This document shows positions 9,961 to 50,166 of a stretch of DNA of 54,808 bases, in pieces. The position numbers and the translations under genes are program-made. The notes under the pieces are model-generated. The model saw only the letters and a program-made list of their open reading frames with translations. It was not told where the DNA came from and did no database searches. This DNA is from an uncultured Chloroflexota bacterium. GTDB taxonomy: Bacteria > Chloroflexota > UBA11872. The stretch is taken from NCBI GenBank assembly GCA_964522375.1, contig CAZFVB010000004.1, positions 24,528 through 79,335 of the forward strand, written 5' to 3'. The first letter of the stretch is position 1. Each line of letters starts with the position of its first letter.

Positions 9961-10278
9961 ATGGGCTCCAGAAGGCGCATTCTGTTTACCTGCCGCTTGC
10001 GTCTCAGTACTGCCGTCTTATAGCTTAAACTTCTCAATCCTAAGGCATTGGGGTCGATCAAGTTCGATTCATAGGGTCCCCTCTCTCGTCCTTGGTCGCT
10101 GTGGTCTTGGCCTCCAATTTGTTCTCAGCCGCATGGCGATAGCCTTCTGTTTAGCGCGTAGAATTGTTATCGTGATGTGATCACGGCCTTGGCTTTTCCT
10201 ATAGTCAAGCCCAACAACTCCAAGCCGATTTTGTTCTTGAGTTGTGCCCTGCCCCAATGGGATGCAAGGAAGGAAACC

Positions 10279-11154
10279 ATGTCAGCGATTGACGCCGAGC
10301 AGTCCTTTAAGGACTTGGGCAACGCGATCATTAAAGGTGAAGCCGAGGCTGTAGTAACGATCGTTAATGATTGTCTTGCTGCTGATATTGGGGCTTCAGA
10401 GATCATCAATGAAGGCATGATCCCGGGAATGGATGTCGTTGGGGAGCTTTTTCGTACCAACCAGTACTACGTACCTGAGGTTCTCATCTCTGCCCGTGCA
10501 ATGAAGGGTGGCATGGCCATTCTCCGGCCAATCCTCGCCGAAACAGGTGTGCCGCCTGTAGGTGAGGTGGTTATTGGTACGGTTCGCGGGGATTTGCATG
10601 ACATTGGAAAGAATCTTGTTGCGATGATGCTGGAAGGTGCAGGTTTTTCGGTCCACGATACCGGCATCGATACACACCCAGATGAGTATGTGCAGACATC
10701 TGTTCAGAACGATGCCAACATCATTGGCATGTCGGCCTTGCTGACGACGACGATGACTAACATGCGCAACACCATTGAAGCCGTAGAGGCCGCGGGCCTG
10801 GCTGACAAGGTTCACTGTATTGTCGGAGGTGCCCCTGTCACTCAACGATATGCGGACGAAATCGGTGCGGATGGATACGCGGCTGACGCAGCCTCAGCCG
10901 TCATTTTGGCCAAGAGGCTCCGGGGTGTTTTGGGCAGTGATGATGATGGGGAGGACATGGGGCGGGCGCTGTATCTCCAGGCTCGAGACGCATTGCAGGT
11001 GGCAGTTCGTGAAGAGCCTGGAACTGATTCTCATTCGGAGGGTTTAATGGAAGCCGAGGGTCTAGTGGAACAGGCTCGTGCGGCCGGTTATGAATTGACC
11101 CACATCGATCGAATCATGGCCGAGATTGATCGGGAGAAACAGCGCACCGTATAA
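10279..11154 (+). CDS. Corrinoid (cobalamin-binding) methyl-carrier protein, MtbC/MttC/MetH-cap type, with a C-terminal extension
   Basis: Four-helix cap (GMDVVGELF...YYVPEVLISARAM) plus B12-binding domain with DxHxxG (GDLHDIGKNLV) and GMSALLTTTM. Start moved to ATG 10279, preceded by AAGGAAGGA. About 77 extra C-terminal residues. Confidence 0.92.
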   Translation: MSAIDAEQSFKDLGNAIIKGEAEAVVTIVNDCLAADIGASEIINEGMIPGMDVVGELFRTNQYYVPEVLISARAMKGGMAILRPILAETGVPPVGEVVIGTVRGDLHDIGKNLVAMMLEGAGFSVHDTGIDTHPDEYVQTSVQNDANIIGMSALLTTTMTNMRNTIEAVEAAGLADKVHCIVGGAPVTQRYADEIGADGYAADAASAVILAKRLRGVLGSDDDGEDMGRALYLQARDALQVAVREEPGTDSHSEGLMEAEGLVEQARAAGYELTHIDRIMAEIDREKQRTV

Positions 11155-37035: not shown

Positions 37036-37677
37036 TTAGCCGGTCTCTTGTGTCCGAAGGGATGCAATGCCAACCGCAACAGTTATCACCGTAAATCCGA
37101 TCCAAGAGACAAGACCTATCACTGAGTTGTCGACCCAGACATTCACAAACAGCAGTGCTCCAGCCACCGCGAGGAGCCATCCCAAAATGACAGGGAGCAT
37201 CTTTTGGAAGGCCATCGCTATGCCCAGCGAAACAAGACCAAGGCCCCAGAGGACACCAAGCCCGGAGCCAATCTCTGTCGCAATCATCAACGTTGTTGAT
37301 CCGGCGTCAAATCCTAATCCTTCCTTCAGCGCTACATCTGGTGCTCCCTTGGTTAGCCCCCAGTTGGCAAGACTCACGCCGAGCACGGCAGGGAAAATAA
37401 CCGTTGAGGCCGACCCGAGGGCTGAGCCGGCGCCCGAGCCTGCCCGAGCTTCAAGTGCGAGCATTCCGAAGCCAACAAGTACAGCAAAGAACGACACACC
37501 CCCAAGGAGTCCAGTAAGGGATGCGGCAAACCTGTTGTCAAGAGTTGCCTGCAAAACAACGCCTGGAAGATCATCCTGGCCTGTACCCAGTAATGCAGTA
37601 CGTAGGAACCCAAAGATTAAGAGCAGTCCAATAGGACCAATCGTCAAGAACCAGCCAGCAAGCTTACGGGTACTCAC
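37036..37677 (-). CDS. Hypothetical integral membrane protein (about 6 TM helices)
   Basis: Multiple hydrophobic segments. GTG 37677 after GGGGA (the track starts at 37722). Directly downstream of grdA. Confidence 0.7.
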   Translation of the reverse strand: MSTRKLAGWFLTIGPIGLLLIFGFLRTALLGTGQDDLPGVVLQATLDNRFAASLTGLLGGVSFFAVLVGFGMLALEARAGSGAGSALGSASTVIFPAVLGVSLANWGLTKGAPDVALKEGLGFDAGSTTLMIATEIGSGLGVLWGLGLVSLGIAMAFQKMLPVILGWLLAVAGALLFVNVWVDNSVIGLVSWIGFTVITVAVGIASLRTQETG

Positions 37678-37790
37678 GTGTTTCCCCAGATCTCTCGTGA
37701 CAATGGAGTGTTTCTTGACCAAAGTCTATGACCAGCGGTCACCCCATTCAAACAGGTCGCTAGCAGACACCAATCTTGCTCACTAGGTGA

Positions 37791-38258
37791 TTACAGTTCC
37801 GTCGCCCTGGCACGAACCCCTTGTACGGCTTCCGCGATGTCCTCAACGTCCAGGGCCATTTCAGCGAGTCCGACCTCCGCTTCATAGACCGAGGGTTCAA
37901 CCTGTTGGGAAATTTGGTGCTCAGTGATGTGGTAGACGGGAAGGTTGAGATTGGATCCGGCGAGCGGACCAGCCCATGTCGGATCACCGGTCGTCATGGT
38001 TTCGGCATACAAGGTGCTGCTTTCCGGTGTTGGTGTTCCCAGGAGGACCACCGTATCGTCGCTACCTACCTGCTCCAGTGTTCTTTGAATCTCTGCCTGA
38101 CCGTCCAGGTCAAGTCCGCCAGAGGCTGTTCAGATAAAGCAGTGCGTGAGTTCGAGGATCACTTCAGCGCCCACGCTTCGGGCACATTCGCCAATGGCCG
38201 TGCCGGGCACCCCATCTCGTTCACCAAGCGCAATGATCTTTTTGCCTCGAAGGTCCAT
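37791..38258 (-). CDS. grdA: Glycine/sarcosine/betaine reductase selenoprotein A (155 aa, Sec43)
   Basis: Manual translation: MDLRGKKIIALGERDGVPGTAIGEC...THCFI-U(TGA 38130-38132)-TASGGLDL...AETMTTGDPTWAGPLAG...LPVYHITE...EMALDVEDI. Shows the GrdA CxxU motif and the GDPT(F/W)AGPLAG signature. AAGGA precedes the ATG. The track shows only the last 86 aa. Confidence 0.95.
38091..38124 (-). promoter_or_regulatory. SECIS-like hairpin of grdA
   Basis: After UGA: CUCUG-GCGGA-CUUGACC-[UGGAC]-GGUCAGG-CAGAG. 7-bp upper stem, 5-bp lower stem, apical loop starting 23 nt after the UGA with G at position 2. Confidence 0.8.
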
Positions 38259-38287
38259 GTGCTGATCCTTGTTCTTTCTGCCGACCA

Positions 38288-39748
38288 CTAGAAATTCTGA
38301 TCAGGGTTAGATTCTAATATAAGCGAGAGACCATCAGACAGCTGGGTCATACGTCCAAGAAAAAGACTCCCTTTCGCGAGGAACATCACGCGTCTCAGAT
38401 CCCTATGTTTTAGCCCCTCGATTGCGTGCGCCATGTACGGGATGGCGGACGCAATATGTCCTTGCGTAGGAGAAAACCCGGGTAGGCCACGAGCCCGGAC
38501 AAACTCATCCCGGTCACTGCGGTCAATCTCACCACGAATAGCCGCTAGGCCGGCAAGCAGACGATAGTTACGCATGGCAACATCGCCGCTCCCCGAGGGT
38601 TCGGTAATGTCCGGATCATGAAGTTCCGTGGCAAAGCGATCGATGTCTGAAAACTGCAAGTCCGCGCTGGCCAGCGGCTTTGCTACGAGATGCTCCAGTA
38701 TTGCCTGTTGTGACGAGCCAGCCGCCACTGGGTGTTTCCCAATGACGTCCATACGCAGGAGGGGCGACACCCCATCATCGGCATCAAGCAGCATGGCGAC
38801 GCCTACCAGCACGTCTTCCAGAACAGGCATTTCGTGCTTAAGGTGACCTTGGAATTTCATGCCAAGCTTGGCCAGTGAAGCTCCACCAACCACGACAACC
38901 TTGGATTCAACACCTGCCGCAATGAGTGACGCGCCAAGCATCAGCGCATGTACTGGACCGCAGCAAAAAGCCTTCGTATCCGACCCTGTGGCTGTGTCGC
39001 AACCACACATTTCCGCGATGGCTTTCGCTAAGTTGCCTCCACCGCGCTGATACCGTTCACCCACAGCTTCCTCGCCACTGTTCAGCACATAATCGATCGT
39101 GGATGGATCCTCCCCGGAATCCCGAAGAAGTGACCGCAGAGCAAAAGCTCCCGTCGTCTTGCATGCAAGATTCTCCAGCAATACGGCAGCGCTCAGACTC
39201 TCGTCTTCATCGTGATCTCGGCTAATACATCCGACCAGATCGCCGTCGGGTCGAAGAAGGGGCAACGCGGTCCCCGCTGCCACCTGCTGTTGAATCGCCT
39301 TACGTGGGTGGCCAGACTCCAAGCAGGCTAGATCAGCAACTGTCACCAGGGGATTGCCCTCTAAAGACTCTCTAATCTGGGCTGCAAACACCTCCTCGAG
39401 CCACACTAAATCAAAGCGATCGGAAACCTTTAGGAGGCCAAAGAATTCATCTCCGGAAACAATCTGGCCGTGGGGATGTCCTTGTTGAGCCTCACCATCA
39501 AGATGACGGTAATACGGTCGCTTCCGATCCCAAAGTCGCTCCGGCGTCAAACTCCCTAACAAAGCACGGTGCGGCGGGTATCGAGCCGCATCCTCGAAAC
39601 TTCGAAGAGAGGCCGCGAGTTGTCCTTCGAGCGTCGCATCTTTTTGGAGTTCCCGTACTGGCTTTGATCCATATCGAACCAGGCCTGGCGTGTGCGCCAC
39701 GAAGAACCGGGCGGCCTTGATAACGGGCCGTGGCTGACTCGTACTCAA
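38288..39748 (-). CDS. grdC: Glycine/sarcosine/betaine reductase component C subunit beta (FabH/thiolase-like fold)
   Basis: HTPGLVRYG, HDEDESLSAAVLLENLACK, SGEEAVGERYQRGGGNLAKAIAE, FCCGP, GFSPTQGHIASA and KGSLFLGRMTQLSDGLS motifs. TTGA overlap with the upstream gene. Confidence 0.93.
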   Translation of the reverse strand: MSTSQPRPVIKAARFFVAHTPGLVRYGSKPVRELQKDATLEGQLAASLRSFEDAARYPPHRALLGSLTPERLWDRKRPYYRHLDGEAQQGHPHGQIVSGDEFFGLLKVSDRFDLVWLEEVFAAQIRESLEGNPLVTVADLACLESGHPRKAIQQQVAAGTALPLLRPDGDLVGCISRDHDEDESLSAAVLLENLACKTTGAFALRSLLRDSGEDPSTIDYVLNSGEEAVGERYQRGGGNLAKAIAEMCGCDTATGSDTKAFCCGPVHALMLGASLIAAGVESKVVVVGGASLAKLGMKFQGHLKHEMPVLEDVLVGVAMLLDADDGVSPLLRMDVIGKHPVAAGSSQQAILEHLVAKPLASADLQFSDIDRFATELHDPDITEPSGSGDVAMRNYRLLAGLAAIRGEIDRSDRDEFVRARGLPGFSPTQGHIASAIPYMAHAIEGLKHRDLRRVMFLAKGSLFLGRMTQLSDGLSLILESNPDQNF

Positions 39749-41049
39749 TAGTCAATTGCGCTTAGATTGTTATAGCCGTAGTGATCGTCATACCTGCGTG
39801 GGACCGGCATTCGAGCGGTCGCGGGCATCATTTGTTTTCGCATGGGACCATCCAGCCCACTCCCACCCGGCATTTCCTGCAATCCAATCACGCGCTTCAT
39901 CTCCGGAGCTTCCGGGAATTCCTGAACAGCCGCCTGGTAAAACCCGGTGCTCACAATCGCGTCCGCTTCAGGAATGGGCTCGAGCATGGTCGGCGCTCCG
40001 TCATAGGAATTATCTTCACTGGTGAGGAAGACGGTCTTAATGCCCATATCTTCACAGGCCTCGATCGTACGAATGATTTCGATAAATTCATTTCCACCAG
40101 CATCCCATGTCATTAAAGCCCCGTCGGCTCCCAGCATCTTCGCCAACTTGGCTGCCTGCTTGCCAACCAACTCCTTTTCAGCCCACGTTGTCCACTCCGT
40201 ACGAACAACGACCACCCCCAGAAAATCAATATCCTGTCCATGCCGACGGCACAGGTCGAAAAGCACAGGATTGTTTGACATGGTCCATGAGGTCGCAAAT
40301 CCCGTTCGATATGGACCGGTGACCGCCCCATCCAAGATCTCGTTGGGATGCATGAGCCATGGTGGGTCCAGGTACCCACGCCCATAGGTCGCGTTGCCAA
40401 ATGTCGCCGCCGACCCCGACATAGCCTGGGGTGAATGCAACCCCATGAGATATGCGACTTTTGGCAGGTTACTGCTGACCTGGGAAAGCTCAAACACCTC
40501 TGTGTCCGGAGGATCGAGATCTATGACGGCCTCTGCCAGCAGGTCGCTCACGGTGAGGGTCGCTCCATGAATAACTTGATTTTTCTCGTGGATAGGAAGC
40601 GAAGATTTGGGCTCAACTACCAGCCCAAGATTCACCAGGGATCCGTATGGCATCACATCAGCCCACGGCCCCACCATATCGAGAAACATAAACACGTGGT
40701 CATGGCCGGAGTCATGCCATCCAACACTTGATATCTCGACCAGAGCCATATTTGTGAGCCGATGCGTGCGACCACGACCAACCATTTGAGCCGGGCGCCC
40801 ACACATTCCTGGATATACCTGGCCCGGCCCGTCAACTTTCACCATAGGCTCAACTACATCCCGAACAGGCCACAGACGCACGGCTTCCCCAGGCATGGCG
40901 ACTTCCAGATCGACACTCTCAATCAACCCGTCTGACATAAGCGTACGAAGCAGTCCTTCCCGATCTACCGTCAGCACTCCGTCGCGCCAGGCGGTGGCCG
41001 ACCCAAAAACCACCTCCCTAACTGGAAAACGACCGACGTCAAGACGCAT
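39745..41049 (-). CDS. Glycine/sarcosine/betaine reductase component B proprotein (GrdE/GrdG/GrdI family)
   Basis: MRLDVG..., PVRDVVEPMVKVDGPG, PNEILDGA...NNPV, GQDIDFLGVVV, KMLGADG and GIKTV motifs. The start overlaps the grdB stop by 11 nt. Confidence 0.9.
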   Translation of the reverse strand: MRLDVGRFPVREVVFGSATAWRDGVLTVDREGLLRTLMSDGLIESVDLEVAMPGEAVRLWPVRDVVEPMVKVDGPGQVYPGMCGRPAQMVGRGRTHRLTNMALVEISSVGWHDSGHDHVFMFLDMVGPWADVMPYGSLVNLGLVVEPKSSLPIHEKNQVIHGATLTVSDLLAEAVIDLDPPDTEVFELSQVSSNLPKVAYLMGLHSPQAMSGSAATFGNATYGRGYLDPPWLMHPNEILDGAVTGPYRTGFATSWTMSNNPVLFDLCRRHGQDIDFLGVVVVRTEWTTWAEKELVGKQAAKLAKMLGADGALMTWDAGGNEFIEIIRTIEACEDMGIKTVFLTSEDNSYDGAPTMLEPIPEADAIVSTGFYQAAVQEFPEAPEMKRVIGLQEMPGGSGLDGPMRKQMMPATARMPVPRRYDDHYGYNNLSAIDY

Positions 41050-42382
41050 GACTTGCATCCGTATTAGTCGGCAGCGCCTCGGTATCAGGATCAAACAGCG
41101 TCGGTTCAGTCACGGACGTTTCCAGTGCGCGCAGTGCGGCGCTTGTGATCTTCACCCCATAGGAAAAATCATCATCGGCACTTAGTTCAGGATTTCCACA
41201 GACATGCTCGATCCGACACCCCCGTACCACGCGACTCTGACCCGTAACCATCGGCAAACCGTGGATTGCTGAAATCATTGCCACAGGGATACCAGCTCGC
41301 TCGATCTCCTTCGCTATCGTTGCACCGCAACGATTACAGGTTCCTCAGGTTGCGACGAGCAGCACGCCATCGACCTTACCTTCCTGCAGTTCCCGGGCAA
41401 TACCTTGGCCGAGCACCTTGGCTTGAGCCACAGGGGTCCCGGTTCCGGCCGTGGTGAAGATTGAATCGTAAATCCTCCCAATCTTGCCTTCGCTCTCCAA
41501 CAGCCGGGCTTGCGCGAGTGGCAGGACATAGTTTGGGTTCTCATTAACAAGGCCGTTGAAGTAGCCGCCGTGAAAGGCCTCCCACCGCACGCGCTCAAGG
41601 GAATCGATGCCATCGACCGAGTGCCGGTAGTAGTGTTGGGAGTGACCGTTGGTGGCGCCATGTGGATTTCCCTTCGGGATCAATCCGCCGCTGCTGACCA
41701 GGCCAATCGTGGCGCTCGCAACGCTCGCCACCGGTGGAGCCGGCGTGACCTCTTCAGGTGTTCGGTAGGGGATCTCGGTCTCGAACGGATCACCTCGCAA
41801 TTTGGCCATGAGCATGTTGGTGGCTCTCTCGCTCCCCGGACGTTGACGCACCCAGGGCCGACGTTCTCGAGTTGGGATATACCCGTCCATTTCAGCCGGT
41901 CCCCGGCCCTCGCCAGTGCCAAGTTTGTACGCCAGTTTCCACATCGCACTAAGCGCCCGCGCCATGTCGGCTGCCGTTTCTTCAGTTCGGATAGCAAGAA
42001 CACCGCTGCGGTATATGCTCAAACCCGGATTCTCGGGATGCATGCCAGTGACAGTCGGAATTTCAAGCTTGGCAGCCACGTGGCTCACGTGGCTACAGGC
42101 CAGGCCATAGCGGCCGGACCCAAAGGCAGGACCCGCAACCACAACGTCAGGGCGTAGATCCTTCAGCATCTGAAGAAGCGACTCACTTACTTCCTCAGTT
42201 TGTTCGTTAAAGGTGTTGTCACCACAGATGATGGTCGCCTTTAGTGAAGCCGTGTCACCCATTAGATTCACAAGAGCACGGGCGGCACCTTCAGGATGTG
42301 CGCTCAGACTGAGTTCGTGGTTCGCAGCTTCCTCTCCGCCGATGCCGGCAAAGAATTGATTGAGATAATGCACGACCTGCAT
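41039..42382 (-). CDS. grdB: Glycine/sarcosine/betaine reductase selenoprotein B (GrdB/GrdF/GrdH family; 447 aa, Sec346)
   Basis: MQVVHYLNQFFAGIGGEE, AGPAFGSGRYG and HGGY motifs. VDGVLLVAT-U(TGA 41345-41347)-GTCNRCGATIAKEIERAGIPV continues in frame into track ORF 41039-41284, giving the UxxCxxC motif. Confidence 0.95.
41316..41334 (-). promoter_or_regulatory. SECIS-like hairpin of grdB
   Basis: Perfect 8-bp stem AUCGUUGC-[GGU]-GCAACGAU. The loop starts 19 nt after the UGA and begins with G. Confidence 0.85.
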
Positions 42383-42524
42383 CGATGATCTTTGCCCTTC
42401 TTTTCATCCGTAGGATTGTCAGACACCGAAACGATCTTAGGTTTTGAGCAGTTGTTGAGCAAGGTCACCCCGGCACACTGTCCACCACATGAGATAACCG
42501 TCGATCGACTCAACGTGTTCCAGT

Positions 42525-43763
42525 TCAACAGGTCCTAACGAGTTCACGATCTCGCTTTGTCAGGACTTCACAACCAGTATCGGTAACTGCAACCGTTTCA
42601 CTCACACCAACCCCCGCGCGGCCGATATCACGTGCCACGGCCCGGACATGAAACACGTGTCCCGGTTGAAGCACGGGATAGGTTTCGATCGACTTCGTAC
42701 TACGCCATCCGCGAGTTGCCATCTGTAAACCAGGCACATCAGCCCAATCAGGCTCAAATCCAAGTCCCACCGAGTACCCACGGTTGCCGTCAGAAAAGAC
42801 TTGTGTCGGTAGCTCCAGTAATGACTCAGATGCTTCCTCCGCAATCGATACCGTAGAGGCCCCCGGTCTCATCCGCGCAATTGTGCGCTCGACAGCGGTA
42901 AGGCAAGCGACATACATGTCGCCCCACAAACTGTCTGCAAAATCCCCAACAATTCCGGTTCGGATCATAGGGGCCGTGTATCGATTGACGCACGCACCCC
43001 ACTCCATGAGAACCGCATCGCCACGAGCTATACGGCGTCGACGAAAGGTGGTGTGCGGAATACCCGAATGATCTCCGATCGTGACAATCGGTTGAATGGA
43101 CATCCGCTCACTGCCGCCTCCGATGATAGCTCCGTACGCTGCGGCCGCGACCTCAGCGTCCATCGCGCCATCCACAACCGCATCGACCGCCACCTCAAAC
43201 CCCAAGCTGGTAAGTCGAGCAGCTTCTCGCAGTGATTCAATTTCCTCTCGACTTTTTACAGCCCGCACCTGTTCAACAAGGCCATGGCAATAGATAGGGT
43301 CAACCGCGATCGCCTCCTGCACGGCAACGAAGGCCTGATACCCGCCGCCGTGTTGATGATGCTCCCATCCAAGCCGTTTCTGTCCCCAGCCACGCTTACG
43401 CAACAATTCACTTAGAGCCATGATCGGATCCCCCGCCCAGGGGAAAGTAACCACGTCTTGAAGCCAGCATGACACCAGGGCGTTGTACGCCTCAAACTCA
43501 TCGACAAGAAGGAGTGGGTCTCCGTCTGTAGGAACCAGGAGGAACGCCGGCGCCGCTGACGCAAGGGTTTCATAGCCACTGAGATAAGAAATGTTTGGCA
43601 TGAACGTGCATACAAGCGCCTCGAGACCTTGCCGGGCGATATTCTGTTGCGCCCCCTGTAAACGTCTCGCGTACTCCTGCTCAGAGAAAGCAAGGTCTTT
43701 TACGCCTTCGGCGCCGGCTGGCTGTTGGAACTCGCTAAATCTCTCTGCATGTCCTGATGTCAT
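42525..43763 (-). CDS. M24-fold hydrolase of the creatinase / ectoine-hydrolase (DoeA) branch
   Basis: FSEQEYARRL N-domain, NISYLSGY, GIPHTT, EWGACVNRYTAPMIRT, GYSVGLGFEPDW and GVSETVAVT motifs. The prolidase metal ligands are only partly kept. Start taken at ATG 43763. Confidence 0.8.
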   Translation of the reverse strand: MTSGHAERFSEFQQPAGAEGVKDLAFSEQEYARRLQGAQQNIARQGLEALVCTFMPNISYLSGYETLASAAPAFLLVPTDGDPLLLVDEFEAYNALVSCWLQDVVTFPWAGDPIMALSELLRKRGWGQKRLGWEHHQHGGGYQAFVAVQEAIAVDPIYCHGLVEQVRAVKSREEIESLREAARLTSLGFEVAVDAVVDGAMDAEVAAAAYGAIIGGGSERMSIQPIVTIGDHSGIPHTTFRRRRIARGDAVLMEWGACVNRYTAPMIRTGIVGDFADSLWGDMYVACLTAVERTIARMRPGASTVSIAEEASESLLELPTQVFSDGNRGYSVGLGFEPDWADVPGLQMATRGWRSTKSIETYPVLQPGHVFHVRAVARDIGRAGVGVSETVAVTDTGCEVLTKRDRELVRTC

Positions 43764-43904
43764 GTGAAAAGCCCCGCAAACATCGCGGCTTGTCCGAAGG
43801 GAATCAAACACAAGGATTCTATGTTTGGGATCACAGCTTTAGAGCACTAGGTCAAAGGGGGATTCCAACGTCGCATTGAAAATAGCCTCATAGCTAGCTA
43901 TCAC

Positions 43905-44882
43905 TCATGCGGCGGAGACCTTGCTTACTCCCAACTCTTCCATCACGCGAAACAGGTCCTCTTTAGCCCCATCTGAAACCGCTTGGAACGGAGGGCGCAT
44001 CGGGCCTCCGTATAGACCCACATACTCAAGAGATGCCTTGACCAGGGCAGCATGATGGTAATAACCATGCGAGCCGCCATCACCTGTATACGTGCCACCG
44101 AACCACTCCATGTAAGGAACCAATGTCGAGTGCAGCCGATCTGCGGCCCCATAGTCACCCGTCTCAAGCAAGTGGAAATATTCGAGTTCAAACTCGGGCC
44201 ACCAGGTGAGTGGGGCAGAAATAAACCCTGTCGCTCCATGCATGTGGGCAACCGTCGATGTGAACCCTAGAGAGTTATCGATAAACACAAAGCGGTCGGC
44301 GTAGCGGTCCAACGCCACTACCATTTCGTCGAAGATTCCCGCACTCCCGTACTTGAGCGACACGATACCTGGGAGTTCAGCGAGTCGCTCAATCAGGGGG
44401 ATCGTCAATTTGGTGCCGAGGGTTCCTCGCCACGACTGATCGTAAATCATGATGCCCGCATTAAGGGATTCGGAAATAATGCGGTACCAGTCGTACATCC
44501 CCTGTTCATCAATTTGGTAATAACACGGTGGGGGGATCATTACGTAACGAGCACCGGTATCAATAGAACGCTGACCTAGCTCGATGACACGGTCAATGTT
44601 CAACCCGGCAACACCGGCCACGACCGGGAAGGCATCACCGCCCGTCTCTAAGGCGATCCCCAACATCTCCTGCTGCTCTTCGTCAGACAGGCTTAGGTAT
44701 TCACCCGTGCCACAGGGGGCAATGGCGAACCCATTGCCAGTGCGAACACCCGCGTCGACCAGGAACTTCAGATTCGATCGCAACGCGGTCACATTCAAGC
44801 GCAGGTCGTCGTGAAACGGCGCCATGACGAGAGCCACAGGGCCTCGAAGTTCATCCTTAATGGCCTTCATGTCCAATGCCAT
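43905..44882 (-). CDS. Dihydrodipicolinate-synthase (DapA/NAL) family lyase/aldolase
   Basis: CGTGE, IMIYD and IVSLKYG (Schiff-base Lys) motifs. Start at ATG 44882 or 44885 after GGGGG. The track start (45044) overlaps the tRNA. Confidence 0.9.
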   Translation of the reverse strand: MALDMKAIKDELRGPVALVMAPFHDDLRLNVTALRSNLKFLVDAGVRTGNGFAIAPCGTGEYLSLSDEEQQEMLGIALETGGDAFPVVAGVAGLNIDRVIELGQRSIDTGARYVMIPPPCYYQIDEQGMYDWYRIISESLNAGIMIYDQSWRGTLGTKLTIPLIERLAELPGIVSLKYGSAGIFDEMVVALDRYADRFVFIDNSLGFTSTVAHMHGATGFISAPLTWWPEFELEYFHLLETGDYGAADRLHSTLVPYMEWFGGTYTGDGGSHGYYHHAALVKASLEYVGLYGGPMRPPFQAVSDGAKEDLFRVMEELGVSKVSAA

Positions 44883-45038
44883 CATCCCCCCGTTCAATGA
44901 CCACACATTTCCGGCAAGCGCTTTGTGTTCTCTGGCCACCGGAGCCGGAGTATACAGTTCTCCGTGAATTTCTCTGCAAGCTGACCCGGAAAAGACCCGT
45001 GTGCAGTAAGGACCAATTGCTGTCAGCTCGTCAACACT

Positions 45039-45114
45039 TGGCACCCCCGGCAGGATTCGAACCTGCGACCCACGGCTTAGAAGGCCGTCGCTCTGTCCAC
45101 TGAGCTACGGGGGC
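45039..45114 (-). tRNA. tRNA-Arg (anticodon TCT), CCA encoded
   Basis: GCCCCCG-TAGCTCAGTGGACAGAGC-GACGGC-CTTCTAA-GCCGT-GGGTC-GCAGG-TTCGAAT-CCTGC-CGGGGGT-GCCA. 76-nt cloverleaf. Confidence 0.97.
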
Positions 45115-45226: not shown

Positions 45227-46174
45227 CTAGCGGTACCCGTCTTCGAGACCAGATACGTCCTGACCAGGGTCCATCAATTCAACAAGGTTTGTTGAAGCAA
45301 GTTCGGCGCGCCGGCTTGCAAGGCCGTCCTCATATGTGGGCATGTCTACTTGGTAAAGAACACCTGTGGGAATACGATCCCCCCACTCAAAAGATTTCGC
45401 GATAGCAGCCTGCTGTTTCGCCACGATCTCATCCGCATTGCCTGCGTCCGCAACCCGCCCATCAAATCCTTCCTCAGACAACTTGTAGACGCGCTGGCTC
45501 CCGATGTCAGAGCCTCTAAAAAAGTCGACCGTCATCAAATCGTTATAGATAGGACACGGCTGAAGAATGTCCAGGAGGGCGGTGCCGCGATGTTGGATGG
45601 CCTGTAGGATCAAGTCCACTAGTTCAGCTTGAGCCATGGCATAACCTCGCGCTACAAAGGTGTAGCCACTGGCAATCGCTAGGCCAATAGGATTCACGTT
45701 GGACTGGATCGACGGTTCAGCCATGGACTTTGTCTGGACACCCCGTCGCATCGTTGGAGCGGCCTGACCTTTTGTTAGGCCATAGACACCATTGTTGTGG
45801 ACCAAGTACGCGAAATTGACATTCCGACGACCCGAGTTCACAAAGTATCCGGCACCAATGCCGTATCCATCACCGTCACCACCCGCCACCAAGACTTCGA
45901 GGTCCCGGTTTGCAAGCTTGACACCCGTAGCCACGTTTAAGGCTCGACCATGCAGTGTGTGCAAACCATACGTGCCAATGTAATGCGGAAGCTTTCCAGA
46001 GCAGCCAATGCCAGAAATAACTGCAATCTCATGCGGGGGACGACCAAGCTTGGCAAGCGCCTGCTTCACCGCACTAAGGATTCCAAAGTCCCCGCACCCA
46101 CCACACCAATCGGGATGGGAATCATCAACACCGAACGACTTCGCCGTCAACTCTGAAGATGCAACTACAGCCAT
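45227..46174 (-). CDS. korB: 2-oxoacid:ferredoxin oxidoreductase beta subunit
   Basis: WCGGCGD, SGIGCSG, HTLHGR and TPP motif GDGDG...NNGVYGLTKGQ. The 2-oxoglutarate specificity is inferred from the adjacent sucCD. Confidence 0.92.
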   Translation of the reverse strand: MAVVASSELTAKSFGVDDSHPDWCGGCGDFGILSAVKQALAKLGRPPHEIAVISGIGCSGKLPHYIGTYGLHTLHGRALNVATGVKLANRDLEVLVAGGDGDGYGIGAGYFVNSGRRNVNFAYLVHNNGVYGLTKGQAAPTMRRGVQTKSMAEPSIQSNVNPIGLAIASGYTFVARGYAMAQAELVDLILQAIQHRGTALLDILQPCPIYNDLMTVDFFRGSDIGSQRVYKLSEEGFDGRVADAGNADEIVAKQQAAIAKSFEWGDRIPTGVLYQVDMPTYEDGLASRRAELASTNLVELMDPGQDVSGLEDGYR

Positions 46175-46194
46175 TTGTTAATCATTTCTGCCAT

Positions 46195-48054
46195 TTATGG
46201 GTGGGACAGCACGAGCCGACCAGCGTCGGAGGTGTGATGGGTGGTTAAGGCTTCAACAACCTCGTCCTCAGAAAACGGTCGACCGTCATATTTCAGGGCT
46301 TGGCGATGCAACTGAATACCGGTCTGTTCAGCAATTAGCATTCCCAACTGGCTCATGTAATTGTCCTCGAGCACGACTGCTCGAGTTGCCGAGGCCAAGA
46401 ACTCGCTCACCGCCTTTGTCGGAAAGGGGCGGAGCATCTTGATCTGAAGGAAGTTAGCAGAAATCTTATGCTCGGACTTTAATACGTGCAACGCATCAAT
46501 AATGGGACCTCTTGTTGATCCCCAGCCTACAACGCTGATCTCGGCTTCCCTAGGGCCAATCAACTCGTACTGCCACTCGTCAGAAATTTCCTGCAGAGCC
46601 AAGTCCAGCTTGCCCATTCGTTTTTCCATCTGAGCCATTCGGTTTTCAACCTGTTCGTCAATACGCCCACGTTCAGTGTGTTCATCACTCGTAGTGACAA
46701 ACGCACCACCAGGTGTCCCAAACAACGCTCGGGGACTAATGCCAGATTCAGTAAGGGCGTGTCGTCGATAGGAGCCTTGCCCGTTAGAGCCGTTTGACCA
46801 TATTTCTCCACGATCGATTGGAAGCTCCTCTAGCCCCAGCCCATCCTCGGTTACCAAAGAATTGGCAATGAACTTGTCAGCAATCACAACCACAGGCATC
46901 TGATATCGATCCCCCCAATTGAAAGCCATATGCGTCATACGGGCAGCGTCACGCGCATCACCCGGTGCTACCACCATATGAGGGAATTCGCCATGGGCAG
47001 GTTGCAGTGCAAATCTAAGGTCTTGCTGTGCTTGGCGGGTAGGTAAGCCAGTACTTGGACCTCCACGTTGCCACAGCACAACAACAGGACCCGGAGCTTC
47101 CGTAATTGACGCAAAGCCAATGCCTTCTGCCATGAGACTGAATCCAGGCCCAGCAGTCGATGTAGATGCGCGCACGCCAGCGTGTGCCGCCCCCACGGCC
47201 ATATTCATTGAGGCGATTTCGTCTTCGGCCTGAAGGACCACGATGGGATAGTCGCCTTGATGCTGTTCCAGCATGACGCTTTCATCGGAAGCAGGAGCGA
47301 TTGGGTAATACGTTTGAAAGACACATCCAGCATGGAGCTTTGCAATGCCAACCGCATCAACACCCTTGATCAGCATGTGCTTCTTGCGGTCTGGCTGTTC
47401 CTCCAAGGAAACGTGGAAGCCCTTATCAGCATGGGCTTCGTGCGTAGCTTTCGCCGCACGCTCTAAAACAGCACGGTTGAATTCCACCATGGCCTGATGA
47501 CGGGTGGGCAATCGTTCAGCTACGACGGCCACGACATTGGCCACATCAAAGCCGAGCAGTGCGCAGCTCGCAGCGATGGGCACCATGTTCCGCATCACGT
47601 TATGCCGGCGGGCGTTGTACTCCTGTCCCATCCCCTCCACGGCCTCCTGAACAAGATCGTCATAGGCCAGTTCAAGCACGTGAATATCGTCACGTGTTAT
47701 GGCGTCCCTATCTACTTTGGCCGCCGTATCAACGACCACCACGCCACCAGGCGCCACCCGATGCAGATGGCCACCATGACGTTGGTAATCCTGGTGAGGA
47801 TCCGTCCCCAACAATGTTTCCGCATCGAGCGCAAGCAACAAATCAATCGACTCAACGTGGGAGTGAACAGGACGGTCGCTCGTCCGCACCCGATAATTAA
47901 TGTGACGACCCATGATGTTCGAGTGATATTCAATATTGGAGAACACATACAAGCCAGCCCGGACACAGGCCTTAGCAAAAACCTCGGAAGACGTATTAAC
48001 CCCACCGCTCAGCGCAGGGCCACCAATCATCCACGAGAGATTGTTTTTCACCAT
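46195..48054 (-). CDS. korA: 2-oxoacid:ferredoxin oxidoreductase alpha subunit (gamma-alpha fusion)
   Basis: EYHSNIMGRH, YPIAPAS, QAEDEIA, TSTAGPGFSLM and QRGGPSTGLPT motifs. Start taken at ATG 48054. Confidence 0.93.
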   Translation of the reverse strand: MVKNNLSWMIGGPALSGGVNTSSEVFAKACVRAGLYVFSNIEYHSNIMGRHINYRVRTSDRPVHSHVESIDLLLALDAETLLGTDPHQDYQRHGGHLHRVAPGGVVVVDTAAKVDRDAITRDDIHVLELAYDDLVQEAVEGMGQEYNARRHNVMRNMVPIAASCALLGFDVANVVAVVAERLPTRHQAMVEFNRAVLERAAKATHEAHADKGFHVSLEEQPDRKKHMLIKGVDAVGIAKLHAGCVFQTYYPIAPASDESVMLEQHQGDYPIVVLQAEDEIASMNMAVGAAHAGVRASTSTAGPGFSLMAEGIGFASITEAPGPVVVLWQRGGPSTGLPTRQAQQDLRFALQPAHGEFPHMVVAPGDARDAARMTHMAFNWGDRYQMPVVVIADKFIANSLVTEDGLGLEELPIDRGEIWSNGSNGQGSYRRHALTESGISPRALFGTPGGAFVTTSDEHTERGRIDEQVENRMAQMEKRMGKLDLALQEISDEWQYELIGPREAEISVVGWGSTRGPIIDALHVLKSEHKISANFLQIKMLRPFPTKAVSEFLASATRAVVLEDNYMSQLGMLIAEQTGIQLHRQALKYDGRPFSEDEVVEALTTHHTSDAGRLVLSHP

Positions 48055-48157
48055 CTCGCTATCCAACCAGGACAAAGCGAAGCTGCATCATGCGCACTGG
48101 TCCGTCGTGAAAACTATTGAAAGGTCTGCTCATTATGGGGCTTTGTCGACGGTTCGC

Positions 48158-49039
48158 CTAATTGATCCGCTCAGCCAGCAAACGCGCGGCTTCTTCCGGC
48201 GTGGACCCAACAGTTACGCCCGCATTTCTTAGCGCTTCTTCTTTCAGCTTCGCCGTTCCTGAGGTGCCGGACACAATGGCGCCCGCATGACCCATTCGAC
48301 GCTCTGGAGGTGCCGTCTTTCCTGCGATAAAGGCGCTCACTGGTTTTGACATGCGCTCACGAATATAGAGCGCCGCACGCTCCTCATCGTCTCCACCTAT
48401 TTCGCCCAAGAGGACAACCCCTGTCGTTGACTCATCGGCCTCAAACATTTTGAGCACATCAACAAATCGTGTGCCGATGATCGGGTCTCCACCGATACCG
48501 ACCGTTGTGGATTGGCCTAAACCGAGGTTTGTTAGGTGTTGGACAACCTCGTACGTGAGAGTCCCACTTCGACTTACGACACCCACAGGACCAGGTGAAT
48601 GGACGCCCCACGGCATCACACCGACCTTGACCATGTCACCGGGAGTTGTAACGCCAGGGCAATTTGGGCCAATCAGATGAGCTCCCGCCGCCCGCACCCG
48701 CGGCATGACCCGAAGCATGTCTAACACCGGTATCCCTTCGGTTAAACAAATAATCACATCAATCCCAGCCGCGACATCTTCAAGTATGGCGTCCGCGGCG
48801 AACGGCGCAGGAACAAAAATACAGGCCACGTTTGCATTGGTTGCTCCGACAGCATCATGAACAGTATTGAACACAGGCACGCCCTCAAGATTTTTCACGA
48901 TCTCGCCCGCACGCCCAGGGGTGACACCCGCCACAAGCGGTGTTCCCGCCTCACGCATGAGTTGACTGTGAAAAGACCCTTGTCCACCCGTCATGCCTTG
49001 TACAAGTAATCGAGTTGACCCATCAAGCAGGATACTCAC
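48158..49039 (-). CDS. sucD: Succinyl-CoA synthetase alpha subunit
   Basis: [26 protein letters not shown] and MGHAG (phospho-His) motifs. Confidence 0.97.
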
Positions 49040-50166
49040 GAGACAGCCTCCACGACGCGTGCCGCCGCACGATCCATAGACACCTCGGCCCGCAATCCTT
49101 CTTGCTCAAGAAGGACTTTAGCTTCGGCTTCCCGTGTCCCCGCCACTCTCACCACGATCGGTACGTCTCTCGACAAGCTTCGTCGGGCCTCAATCACGCC
49201 AGTGGCGACATCATCAGCCCGAGTAATACCACCGAATATGTTGATCAGGACGGCCTTAACGTTTTCGTCCGAAAGAATTATGTCAAACGCCTCCGTAATG
49301 CGCTCAACCCCCGCACCGCCACCTACATCCAAAAAGTTCGCTGGCTCACCACCGTGGTTCTTGATCACATCCATGGTGGCCATCGCTAAACCTGCGCCAT
49401 TGACCATACAGCCAATTGAGCCATCGAGTTTGATGTAGCTCACTCCTGCTTCTCGAGCACGTCGCTCGGCTGGATTCTCTTCAGCCTCCTGGCGAACCGA
49501 CCTCATCTCTGGTTGGCGGTATAAGGCGTTCTCATCAATCGTCAACTTGGCATCAATCGCCAAAAGATTCCCTTCGACGTCAACCACCAACGGGTTAACT
49601 TCGGCCAACGAAGCATCGACATCAATAAATGCATTAATCAGGCCTGATGCAATCCCAACGAATTGCGCGGTCTGGTCACCCTCCAATCCCAATTGGAAAG
49701 CTAAAGTTCTCGCTTGCCACGCCGGAAGGCCCTCGTCAGGGGACACCTCTACTCTGTGTATCGCCTCCGGATCTGCGACAGCAACCTCTTCTATGTCAAC
49801 ACCACCCTTGCTGCTCGCCATCAGAAGCAACTGTTGAGAGACTCGATCCACAACAATTCCTAAATAGAACTCCCGAACAATATCCACTGCTGGCGCGACC
49901 AACACCGAGGAAACGCCCTCACCAGCAATCGTCAACTGAAAGATATCTTGAGCAACCTCACCAGCCTCTGCGGGTGTCTTGGCAAGCTTCACCCCACCAG
50001 CCTTACCGCGACCACCGGCCAGCACCTGTGCCTTAACGACCACCTCACAAGCAAACGTCTCAGCCGCCTCAACTACTGCTTCCGCAGACGTGGCCAGAAC
50101 ACCGTCAGGCACTGGTAGTCCATGCCGCCTGAAGACAGACCGCGCCTCAAACTCTCTTACTTTCAT
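49036..50166 (-). CDS. sucC: Succinyl-CoA synthetase beta subunit
   Basis: KAQVLAGGRGKAGGVK, NGAGLAMATMD, PANFLDVGG and NIFGGI motifs. Confidence 0.97.
   Translation of the reverse strand: MKVREFEARSVFRRHGLPVPDGVLATSAEAVVEAAETFACEVVVKAQVLAGGRGKAGGVKLAKTPAEAGEVAQDIFQLTIAGEGVSSVLVAPAVDIVREFYLGIVVDRVSQQLLLMASSKGGVDIEEVAVADPEAIHRVEVSPDEGLPAWQARTLAFQLGLEGDQTAQFVGIASGLINAFIDVDASLAEVNPLVVDVEGNLLAIDAKLTIDENALYRQPEMRSVRQEAEENPAERRAREAGVSYIKLDGSIGCMVNGAGLAMATMDVIKNHGGEPANFLDVGGGAGVERITEAFDIILSDENVKAVLINIFGGITRADDVATGVIEARRSLSRDVPIVVRVAGTREAEAKVLLEQEGLRAEVSMDRAAARVVEAVS

What the first reader, a model, noticed from the sequence alone, without database searches (positions are those of the whole stretch)
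37791..38258. Hidden selenoprotein GrdA (CxxU) with a coding-overlapped SECIS hairpin
Seen: the track reports only an 86-aa fragment. The real gene starts at ATG 38258 and reads through TGA 38130-38132 in T-H-C-F-I-U-T-A. A two-stem hairpin (38091-38124) with a UGGAC loop follows. Known: GrdA carries the CxxU redox motif and accepts the carboxymethyl-selenoether. Bacterial SECIS elements lie just 3' of the UGA with an apical G. Standard pipelines would call this a pseudogene or two fragments.
Basis: partly seen in the sequence, partly recalled or inferred. Interest (0 to 1): 0.75.

Follow-up and report, generated by a model that had tools for sequence, protein, structure and literature searches.

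The report
Ordinary GrdA selenoprotein gene, split by ORF callers
This is a genuine but ordinary gene for selenoprotein A of a glycine-reductase-type enzyme in a marine bacterium, and it looks broken only because its selenocysteine codon (UGA) is normally read as a stop.

Summary
On the minus strand, ATG 38258 to TAA 37791 is one frame with a single in-frame TGA (38130-38132, codon 43) in the context T-H-C-F-I-U-T-A.

- **Family match.** The read-through protein (155 aa) matches GrdA end to end: Pfam GRDA 1.2e-53, and the NCBIfam equivalog at 185 bits against a cut-off of 130.
- **Orthologues.** All 80 relatives fetched carry TGA at this codon.
- **Hairpin.** The upper stem-loop 38096-38114 (7 bp, loop UGGAC) meets every rule of the published bacterial SECIS model. 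It is paired in 97% of orthologue cells, has one compensatory pair, and has frozen synonymous sites.
- **Context.** TGA is a normal stop elsewhere in the window. grdA sits in a grdB-like(Sec)/grdE-like/grdC/grdA operon, and the grdB-like UGA is followed by an Rfam SECIS_4 match.
- **Public data.** Gene calls on identical contigs split grdA into 42-aa and 68-aa pieces. Marine metatranscriptome contigs span the UGA.

Verdict: a real Sec-decoded GrdA, a known kind, of low interest. The divergent operon without grdD around it is the more interesting matter.

The parts
37791..38258 (-). grdA coding sequence, 155 codons plus TAA; selenoprotein A of a glycine/sarcosine/betaine-type reductase
   Evidence: Pfam PF04723 at 1.2e-53 over profile positions 1-147 of 147. 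NCBIfam NF040748 equivalog at 185 bits, cut-off 130. Against the 91% relative L087, synonymous:nonsynonymous codon changes are 9:2 before and 21:6 after the TGA.
38130..38132 (-). UGA read as selenocysteine (residue 43)
   Evidence: TGA stands at the aligned codon in 80 of 80 relatives. Full-length database homologues show W or G there, which I infer are calls under codes that read TGA as a residue. The base is identical in independent metagenome and metatranscriptome contigs.
38130..38141 (-). CxxU redox motif (Cys40-Phe-Ile-Sec43)
   Evidence: Cys40, Thr44 and Gly47 are identical in all 82 aligned genes. Residue 42 is Val in 80 of 82 and Ile here.
38096..38114 (-). SECIS upper stem-loop: CUUGACC / UGGAC / GGUCAGG, lying inside codons 49-55 (L-D-L-D-G-Q-A)
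   Evidence: 97.1% of cells paired over 78 sequences, with A-U to G-C compensation in L048, L052, L056 and L062. Third-position entropy is 0.17-0.38 bit inside against 1.10-1.94 elsewhere. MFE is -8.4 kcal/mol. A covariance model built from relatives only scores 51 bits, E 2e-19, here.
38120..38124 (-).
   Evidence: Folds in this sequence, but helix 1 is paired in only 37.4% of orthologue cells. The pair at nt 138 is broken (U to C) in L087.
38091..38095 (-). 3' arm of the lower stem (CAGAG); specific to this window
   Evidence: Same as the 5' arm.
38266..38270 (-). Shine-Dalgarno-like AAGGA, 7 nt before the ATG
   Evidence: Read from the sequence. The N-terminus MDLRGKK aligns with MELKGKK of homologues.
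38288..39748 (-). grdC (component C, beta subunit); its stop lies 29 nt before the grdA start
   Evidence: NF040746 equivalog at 586.6 bits, cut-off 450. A grdC homologue was found on 78 of the 80 relatives' loci, in most of them directly upstream of grdA.
39745..41094 (-). grdE/grdG-like component B alpha (proprotein family)
   Evidence: PF09338 at 8.3e-82. Far below the substrate-specific NCBIfam cut-offs: GrdG 209.7 against 780.
41039..42382 (-). grdB-like selenoprotein B with an in-frame TGA at 41345-41347 (U-G-T-C-N-R-C)
   Evidence: TIGR01918 at 324 bits, cut-off 65. GrdF, GrdB and GrdH all score below their cut-offs.
41307..41344 (-). SECIS of the grdB-like gene
   Evidence: Rfam RF01990 SECIS_4 at 45.5 bits, gathering score 38, E 1.9e-07.

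Best explanation
The stretch is an intact grdA gene, the last gene of a grdB-like / grdE-like / grdC / grdA operon of a marine planktonic bacterium. Judging by its nearest relatives, the organism is probably a Dehalococcoidia (SAR202-type) Chloroflexota.

The ribosome reads UGA at codon 43 as selenocysteine. The mRNA folds into a 7-bp stem with a UGGAC loop whose apical GG lies 22 nt past the UGA. By analogy with known bacterial SECIS elements, this stem-loop recruits SelB-GTP-Sec-tRNA(Sec) to the stalled codon.

The product is a 155-aa alpha/beta protein with its Cys40-x-x-Sec43 motif in a flexible loop. It would accept the carboxymethyl group from protein B as a selenoether, be cleaved reductively through its own Cys40 to give a protein C-bound acetyl thioester and a Se-S bond, and then be re-reduced by a thiol system.

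Shown here: the frame, family membership, conservation of the UGA, RNA-level constraint on the upper stem, the operon partners, that TGA is otherwise a stop, and transcription in situ. Inferred from established GrdA and SECIS biochemistry: SelB binding, Sec insertion, and the selenoether chemistry.
For: - Frame and motif.
- Full-length GrdA profile matches above curated cut-offs.
- 80 of 80 relatives have TGA at the aligned codon. GrdA is reported to have no known Cys homologues (PMC1794560).
- The bSECIS rules of PMC13188914 Fig. 2 are all met: 5-nt loop with G at position 2 followed by G, 7-bp upper stem, 22-nt spacing, MFE -8.4 (upper stem) and -13.1 (both stems) kcal/mol.
- Upper stem: 97.1% of cells paired, one compensatory pair, U-A/U-G alternation.
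- Synonymous sites of Leu49, Leu51 and Gly53 have entropies of 0.17, 0.38 and 0.28 bit. The 50 other conserved four- or six-fold codons of the gene range from 1.10 to 1.94 (mean 1.56), so the three stem codons are the three lowest of 53.
- A covariance model built without the window finds only this site: 51 bits, E 2e-19, next best 11 bits.
- TGA ends 15 of 37 window ORFs, so it is a real stop in this organism.
- Purifying selection acts on both sides of the TGA against the 91% relative: 9:2 and 21:6 synonymous:nonsynonymous.
- A second Sec gene in the same operon has an Rfam SECIS_4 match.
- grdC is adjacent in the window, and a grdC homologue was found on 78 of 80 relatives' loci, mostly directly upstream of grdA.
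- The sequence is identical in metagenome contigs of three studies. Metatranscriptome contigs 38069-38262 and 38093-38255 span the UGA and the stem without any change.
- AF2 model: pLDDT 91.5 overall, with the lowest confidence (69) in residues 41-50 around the Sec.
Against: - No selA, selB, selD or tRNA-Sec in the 54.8-kb window.
- The hairpin is not more stable than shuffled sequence (z +0.31).
- No Rfam SECIS family matches it, even at E up to 10.
- The lower stem is not conserved.
- No grdD and no thioredoxin or thioredoxin reductase was found in the window, so the usual partners for the last steps are unplaced.
- Metatranscriptome contigs are short and may contain DNA carry-over.
Confidence: 0.9

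Rival explanations
1. Pseudogene: the TGA is a nonsense mutation, and only a 42-aa peptide or nothing is made.
For: Naive ORF calling and public gene calls give two fragments. Sec machinery is not shown for this genome.
Against: TGA stands at the same codon in 80 of 80 relatives from several phyla. Synonymous changes dominate on both sides of it. The sequence is identical in independent samples. The family is known only in the Sec form (PMC1794560).
Confidence: 0.02
2. The organism has lost Sec decoding, or the machinery is absent, so grdA and the grdB-like gene are recent relics that still look intact.
For: No sel genes or tRNA-Sec were found in the window. The genome was not searchable.
Against: Two Sec genes in one operon both keep their UGA and SECIS. 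Purifying selection persists between 91%-identical lineages. The gene is transcribed in seawater. 54.8 kb is a small sample of a genome.
Confidence: 0.04
3. TGA is a sense codon (Trp or Gly, codes 4 or 25) in this organism, as the W and G in database homologues would suggest.
For: Full-length database homologues show CFVW or CYVG at the site.
Against: 15 of 37 well-supported ORFs in the window end at TGA with full-length profile matches. The W and G are best explained as artefacts of the translation table used on short metagenome contigs.
Confidence: 0.01
4. The gene is a Sec-GrdA, but the conserved stem-loop only reflects the conserved peptide L-D-L-[DE]-G-Q and codon bias. The real SECIS would lie elsewhere or be unnecessary.
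For: The stem lies in a conserved peptide. MFE is not above shuffles. There is no Rfam SECIS hit.
Against: The synonymous third positions inside the stem are the three least variable of 53 comparable codons. Gly53 uses GGU in 78 of 82 genes and GGC only in the four genes where its partner changed A to G. All bSECIS geometric rules are met.
Confidence: 0.03

Closest known systems
GrdA, selenoprotein A of the glycine/sarcosine/betaine reductase complexes of Clostridia (Peptoclostridium litorale, Eubacterium acidaminophilum, Clostridium sticklandii); PF04723 / NF040748
   Same: Same length class (about 155 aa), a full-length profile match, the CxxU motif with Sec near residue 43-44, a SECIS directly after the UGA inside the reading frame, and a location in a grd operon beside grdC and a Sec-containing protein B.
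   Different: - At most 68% identical to any GTDB representative.
- Ile instead of Val before Sec.
- Gene order B-E-C-A instead of the clostridial orders.
- No grdD, trxA, trxB or grdX found in the window.
- The host is a marine planktonic, probably Chloroflexota, bacterium rather than an amino-acid-fermenting Firmicute.
GrdEBCA clusters reported in SAR202 / Dehalococcoidia and other MAGs (Lost City study, bioRxiv 10.1101/2022.01.25.477282)
   Same: Same set of four grd genes without grdD. The nearest relatives of the window's GrdA are Dehalococcoidia/SAR202 MAGs.
   Different: Most of the Lost City clusters are described with selA, selB and trxA alongside. None of these is next to this operon. 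Here an M24 hydrolase and a DapA-like gene precede it.
Bacterial SECIS consensus (bSECISearch model of Zhang and Gladyshev, as summarised in PMC13188914 Fig. 2) and the E. coli fdhF SECIS
   Same: A stem-loop in the coding sequence just 3' of the UGA, a small apical loop with G[G/U] at its start, and spacing and energy within the model's limits.
   Different: N1 and N2 of the loop (U and C) do not pair in this window, whereas they do (U-A or U-G) in the relatives that have Glu at codon 52. It is not matched by any Rfam SECIS family, whereas the neighbouring grdB-like SECIS matches SECIS_4.

Membership tests
GrdA (PF04723 / NCBIfam NF040748 reduct_selen_A) | Full-length profile match above the curated cut-off | tested here: met
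   Pfam 181.3 bits (cut-off 22), profile 1-147 of 147. NCBIfam equivalog 185 bits (cut-off 130), profile 1-149 of 151.
GrdA (PF04723 / NCBIfam NF040748 reduct_selen_A) | CxxU motif with Sec encoded by an in-frame UGA at the family's conserved position | tested here: met
   C40-F-I-U43. 80 of 80 relatives have TGA there and Cys40 is invariant.
GrdA (PF04723 / NCBIfam NF040748 reduct_selen_A) | Encoded with protein B (GrdB/E type) and protein C (GrdC) genes | tested here: met
   grdB-like, grdE-like and grdC lie directly upstream on the same strand. The same contiguous B-E-C-A order occurs in 18 of 80 relatives' loci, and a grdC homologue was found on 78 of 80.
GrdA (PF04723 / NCBIfam NF040748 reduct_selen_A) | GrdD and a thioredoxin system available as partners | tested here: inconclusive
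   None was found among the window's ORFs or beside the operon of relative L049. The rest of the genome was not searchable.
GrdA (PF04723 / NCBIfam NF040748 reduct_selen_A) | Genome encodes selA, selB, selC and selD | not testable with these tools
There are no sel genes and no tRNA-Sec in the window.
GrdA (PF04723 / NCBIfam NF040748 reduct_selen_A) | Selenium in the protein; carboxymethyl-selenoether intermediate | not testable with these tools
   Needs 75Se labelling, mass spectrometry or an enzyme assay.
Bacterial SECIS (bSECIS consensus model) | Apical loop 3-9 nt, upper stem 4-16 bp, G in the first two loop positions, 16-37 nt between UGA and loop, MFE <= -7.5 kcal/mol | tested here: met
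   Loop UGGAC (5 nt, G at positions 2 and 3), 7-bp stem, 22 nt spacing, -8.4 kcal/mol for the upper stem alone. Rules taken from PMC13188914.
Bacterial SECIS (bSECIS consensus model) | Structure conserved in orthologues beyond what the protein requires | tested here: met
   Upper stem: 97.1% paired, one compensatory pair, frozen synonymous sites, covariance-model hit at 51 bits. The lower stem is not conserved (37.4% paired).
Bacterial SECIS (bSECIS consensus model) | Binds SelB and directs Sec insertion | not testable with these tools
   Needs a binding or reporter assay.
Rfam SECIS families (SECIS_1 to SECIS_5) | Covariance-model match at or above the gathering score | tested here: not met
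   No SECIS family hit on 37950-38300, even at E up to 10. The grdB-like SECIS does match SECIS_4 (45.5 bits, gathering 38). The grdA element therefore works like a bSECIS but is not a member of a curated Rfam family.

The most novel reading that the evidence does not exclude
This GrdA may be the selenoether carrier of a reductase whose substrate is not glycine, sarcosine or betaine. Its B subunits fall far below all three substrate-specific family cut-offs, no grdD or thioredoxin genes were found in the window, and in this lineage alone an M24 creatinase/ectoine-hydrolase-like enzyme and a DapA-like lyase were placed in front of it. That could feed it a compound released by hydrolysis, in an oxic-ocean SAR202-type bacterium.
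Probability: 0.2. Interest if true: 0.55.

Novelty: new member of a known kind. Interest (0 to 1): 0.15.

Why it matters
For GrdA itself the value is in annotation. The gene is intact, and the public gene calls for this widespread seawater population split it, and its grdB-like neighbour, into fragments. As a result the reductase is missed in metabolic reconstructions.

The conserved, codon-embedded stem (CUUGACC-UGGAN-GGUCARG) is a clean marker for finding grdA UGA codons in Chloroflexota, Rokubacteria, Entotheonella and Latescibacterota MAGs. No Rfam family matched it here.

Nothing in it challenges current knowledge of selenocysteine decoding.

Tried and rejected
- **Sec machinery in the genome.** The Sec-machinery test could not be run.
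- **Rfam at permissive thresholds on the hairpin.** Only a meaningless mir-653 hit at E 8.
- **Thermodynamic test of the hairpin.** Not above shuffles, so it is rejected as evidence.
- **RNAalifold on the 78-sequence alignment.** It kept only the four innermost pairs. The full 7-bp stem was tested explicitly instead.
- **Exact look-up of the GrdC product.** Failed, probably because of a different start codon. The truncated GrdB fragment worked.
- **aragorn on the 80 relatives' loci.** No tRNA-Sec near any grd operon.
- **PDB by sequence and by fold.** No relative of GrdA has a solved structure: 0 sequence hits, and the best Foldseek E-value is 6e-3 with TM 0.44-0.46.
- **Cys-form orthologues.** None seen. 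Every full-length database hit has W or G at the Sec position, i.e. TGA.
- **The 228-aa ORF downstream (37036-37722) as a candidate grdD.** Rejected. It matches no family and looks like a multi-pass membrane protein.

Full report
**Observation.** Read on the minus strand, the window has ATG at 38258, a single in-frame TGA at 38130-38132 and TAA at 37791-37793. Translating with TGA as U gives a 155-residue protein with the context ...LELTHCFIUTASGGLDLDGQ.... The mechanical ORF list shows the two pieces a naive caller would report. An AAGGA lies 7 nt before the ATG, and the stop of the upstream gene lies 29 nt before it.

**Identity of the protein.**
- The read-through product matches Pfam GRDA over the whole profile in one stretch that crosses the TGA (1.2e-53, profile 1-147 of 147).
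- It matches the NCBIfam equivalog for glycine/sarcosine/betaine reductase selenoprotein A at 185 bits against a cut-off of 130.
- The genes directly upstream on the same strand are:
  - grdC (NF040746, 586.6 bits, cut-off 450);
  - a GrdE/GrdG-family component B alpha;
  - a GrdB-family selenoprotein B whose frame also continues through a TGA (41345-41347, motif U-G-T-C-N-R-C).
- That second TGA is followed immediately by a match to Rfam SECIS_4 (41307-41344, 45.5 bits, gathering score 38).

**Is the TGA a conserved feature?**
- A search of 5.8 billion proteins returned 807 GrdA relatives. Most are 85-113-aa C-terminal fragments, which is what callers make of a Sec gene. The full-length ones carry W (one carries G) at the Sec position. 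I read these as calls under tables that read TGA as a residue.
- I fetched 80 loci from species-representative genomes. The best is 68% identical, and they come from Dehalococcoidia/SAR202, Chloroflexota, Latescibacterota, Rokubacteria/Methylomirabilota, Entotheonella, Nitrospinota and others. All 80 have TGA at the aligned codon: 78 in C-F-V-*-T, L028 in C-S-V-*-T, and L058 with a different residue after the motif.
- This agrees with the literature statement that GrdA has no known Cys-containing homologues (PMC1794560).
- TGA is otherwise an ordinary stop in this organism. It ends 15 of 37 well-supported ORFs in the window, which excludes a code in which TGA is a sense codon.
- Against a 91%-identical relative from another metagenome (L087), the TGA is kept. 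Codon changes are 9 synonymous to 2 nonsynonymous before it and 21 to 6 after it. Both halves are therefore under purifying selection as coding sequence.

**The hairpin.**
Its energy is -13.1 kcal/mol, or -8.4 for the upper stem alone.
- The 66-nt stretch is no more stable than dinucleotide shuffles (z +0.31), so stability alone proves nothing.
- The comparative evidence is decisive for the upper stem only. In a gap-free alignment of 78 distinct sequences:
  - The seven upper pairs form standard pairs in 97.1% of cells. U-A alternates with U-G at one pair.
  - There is one true compensation. Where Asp50 GAC became Gly GGC (L048, L052, L056, L062), the partner Gly53 GGU became GGC.
  - The lower stem is paired in only 37.4% of cells. 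It is also broken by a U-to-C change in the 91% relative.
- Because the stem lies in a conserved peptide, I tested synonymous sites. The three four- or six-fold-degenerate codons with a silent third base in the stem or at its loop edge are Leu49, Leu51 and Gly53. Their third-position entropies are 0.17, 0.38 and 0.28 bit.
- The 50 comparable conserved codons elsewhere in the gene range from 1.10 to 1.94 (mean 1.56). The codons between the UGA and the stem vary freely, at 1.1-1.8.
- The three stem codons are thus the three least variable of 53. That is an RNA-level constraint, not a protein-level one.
- A covariance model built from the 77 relatives without the window finds exactly one site in the 54.8-kb window: 38091-38132 on the minus strand, 51 bits, E 2e-19, with the next best at 11 bits.
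- The element meets every rule of the published bacterial SECIS model (PMC13188914, Fig. 2):

| Rule | Required | Found here |
|---|---|---|
| Apical loop length | 3-9 nt | 5 nt (UGGAC) |
| Upper stem | 4-16 bp | 7 bp |
| G in the first two loop positions | yes | G at position 2, followed by G |
| Spacing from UGA to loop | 16-37 nt | 22 nt |
| MFE | at most -7.5 kcal/mol | -8.4 kcal/mol |

- It matches no Rfam SECIS family, even at E up to 10. I therefore describe it as working like a bSECIS without filing it under a curated Rfam family.

**Reality of the sequence, and expression.**
- The grdA sequence is identical in two ENA metagenome contigs from different samples (L081, L082). On those contigs the public gene calls split it into 42-aa and 68-aa GRDA pieces and split the grdB-like gene as well.
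- The 701-nt stretch around the gene occurs in at least 20 marine plankton or seawater runs from about nine studies. It shows no difference in contigs from three of those studies.
- Marine metatranscriptome contigs cover 38069-38262 and 38093-38255 without change, so they cross the UGA and the stem. Another covers 37851-38060.
- This shows transcription in situ, with the usual caveat about DNA carry-over and short contigs.

**Structure.** AlphaFold2 with 24 sequences gives a confident small alpha/beta fold (pLDDT 91.5, pTM 0.89). Its least confident block (69) is residues 41-50, directly after strand 32-39. This places the CxxU motif in a flexible loop. No solved structure resembles it by sequence or by fold (best E 6e-3, TM about 0.45).

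**What could not be tested.**
- The window itself holds housekeeping genes (topA, mfd, pth, rsmA, valS), transporters, 2-oxoacid:ferredoxin oxidoreductase and succinyl-CoA ligase. It holds no selA, selB, selD or tRNA-Sec.
- No tRNA-Sec lies near the grd operons of the 80 relatives.
- The indirect case is strong. Two Sec genes in one operon each have a conserved UGA and SECIS, and both are under purifying selection.

**Mechanism.**
- Shown here: one reading frame, GrdA family membership, the conserved UGA, a constrained stem-loop at the legal distance, the operon partners, TGA as a true stop elsewhere, and transcription.
- Inferred from established knowledge of bacterial Sec decoding and of glycine reductase (summarised in PMC13188914):
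  1. SelB-GTP-Sec-tRNA(Sec) binds the apical part of the stem-loop and delivers Sec to UGA43.
  2. The Sec of GrdA takes the carboxymethyl group from the pyruvoyl-containing protein B as a selenoether.
  3. Cys40 resolves it to a protein C-bound acetyl thioester, which gives acetyl phosphate.
  4. The Se-S bond is re-reduced by a dithiol system.

**Comparison and novelty.**
- This is a typical GrdA. GrdEBCA clusters in SAR202 Dehalococcoidia MAGs have been reported (bioRxiv 10.1101/2022.01.25.477282).
- A single GrdA was already seen in the Global Ocean Sampling selenoproteome (PMC2398784).
- The 'hidden' aspect is a gene-calling artefact. I rate it a new member of a known kind, of low interest.

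**The surrounding operon is less ordinary.**
- The order B-E-C-A is shared contiguously by 18 of the 80 relatives' loci, with 50-57% identity to the window's GrdB-like protein.
- No grdD or trx genes were found in the window, and none beside the operon of L049.
- The B and E subunits score far below the glycine-, sarcosine- and betaine-specific cut-offs.
- The M24 hydrolase and DapA-like genes in front of the operon are found in none (M24) and at most one (DapA-like) of the 80 relatives' loci.
- Another note of this scan (e1-5218299) covers that operon. I confirmed its gene content but did not pursue the substrate question.

Noticed in passing
window 41039-42382 (-), TGA 41345-41347, SECIS 41307-41344: A second split selenoprotein. 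The GrdB-family protein B has U-G-T-C-N-R-C and an Rfam SECIS_4 match directly after the UGA. Public gene calls cut it into 345-aa and about 80-aa pieces.
   Followed up: partly
window 37791-45044 (-): The operon is non-canonical. It runs DapA-like, M24 creatinase/ectoine-hydrolase-like, grdB-like, grdE-like, grdC, grdA. No grdD, trxA or trxB was found in the window. The B and E subunits are far below the Gly/Sar/betaine-specific NCBIfam cut-offs. B-E-C-A is shared by 18 of 80 relatives' loci, but the M24 gene by none and the DapA-like gene by one, weakly.
   Followed up: partly
window 37036-37722 (-): The ORF after grdA (213-228 aa) matches no Pfam or NCBIfam family. It is rich in Gly, Ala and Leu with several hydrophobic spans, so it is probably a membrane protein. 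It is called as a gene on L081 and L082, and an ORF of similar length (211 residues, cut at the contig end) follows grdA on the related contig L088. It has no homologue in the 80 GTDB loci.
   Followed up: partly
window 10177-11154 (+): A corrinoid protein closest to the glycine-betaine-specific MtgC (189.8 bits, below the cut-off of 370). This hints at methylated-amine metabolism in the same genome as a sarcosine/betaine-reductase-like enzyme.
   Followed up: no
window 45039-45114 (-) and 43905-45044 (-): tRNA-Arg(TCT) overlaps the first codons of the longest DapA-like ORF by 6 nt. The public call on L081 is 332 aa rather than 379, so the true start is probably further downstream.
   Followed up: no
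window 45227-50166 (-); L049 1346-3169: 2-oxoacid:ferredoxin oxidoreductase alpha and beta subunits and succinyl-CoA ligase lie just upstream of the grd cluster. A 2-oxoacid:acceptor oxidoreductase also lies near the grd operon of relative L049. This may be a recurring link to a low-potential electron donor.
   Followed up: no
database proteins P0003-P0028: Full-length GrdA entries in public protein collections carry Trp (one carries Gly) at the Sec position. They are probably products of gene calling under tables that read TGA as a residue, on short metagenome contigs. They could be mistaken for non-Sec GrdA variants.
   Followed up: partly
relatives L021, L023, L027, L032 and others, columns 5-11 with 47-53 of alignment A2: Many Dehalococcoidia grdA genes can form a different, long-range lower helix (ACGUCCGC ... 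GCGGACGU) around the conserved upper stem. The window cannot form it. Lower parts of the element therefore seem to be lineage-specific.
   Followed up: no
model m877f0a5c3e93 (GrdA): The confident AF2 model of GrdA has no significant match among solved structures (best TM about 0.45). The family appears to lack an experimental structure in the PDB copy searched.
   Followed up: yes
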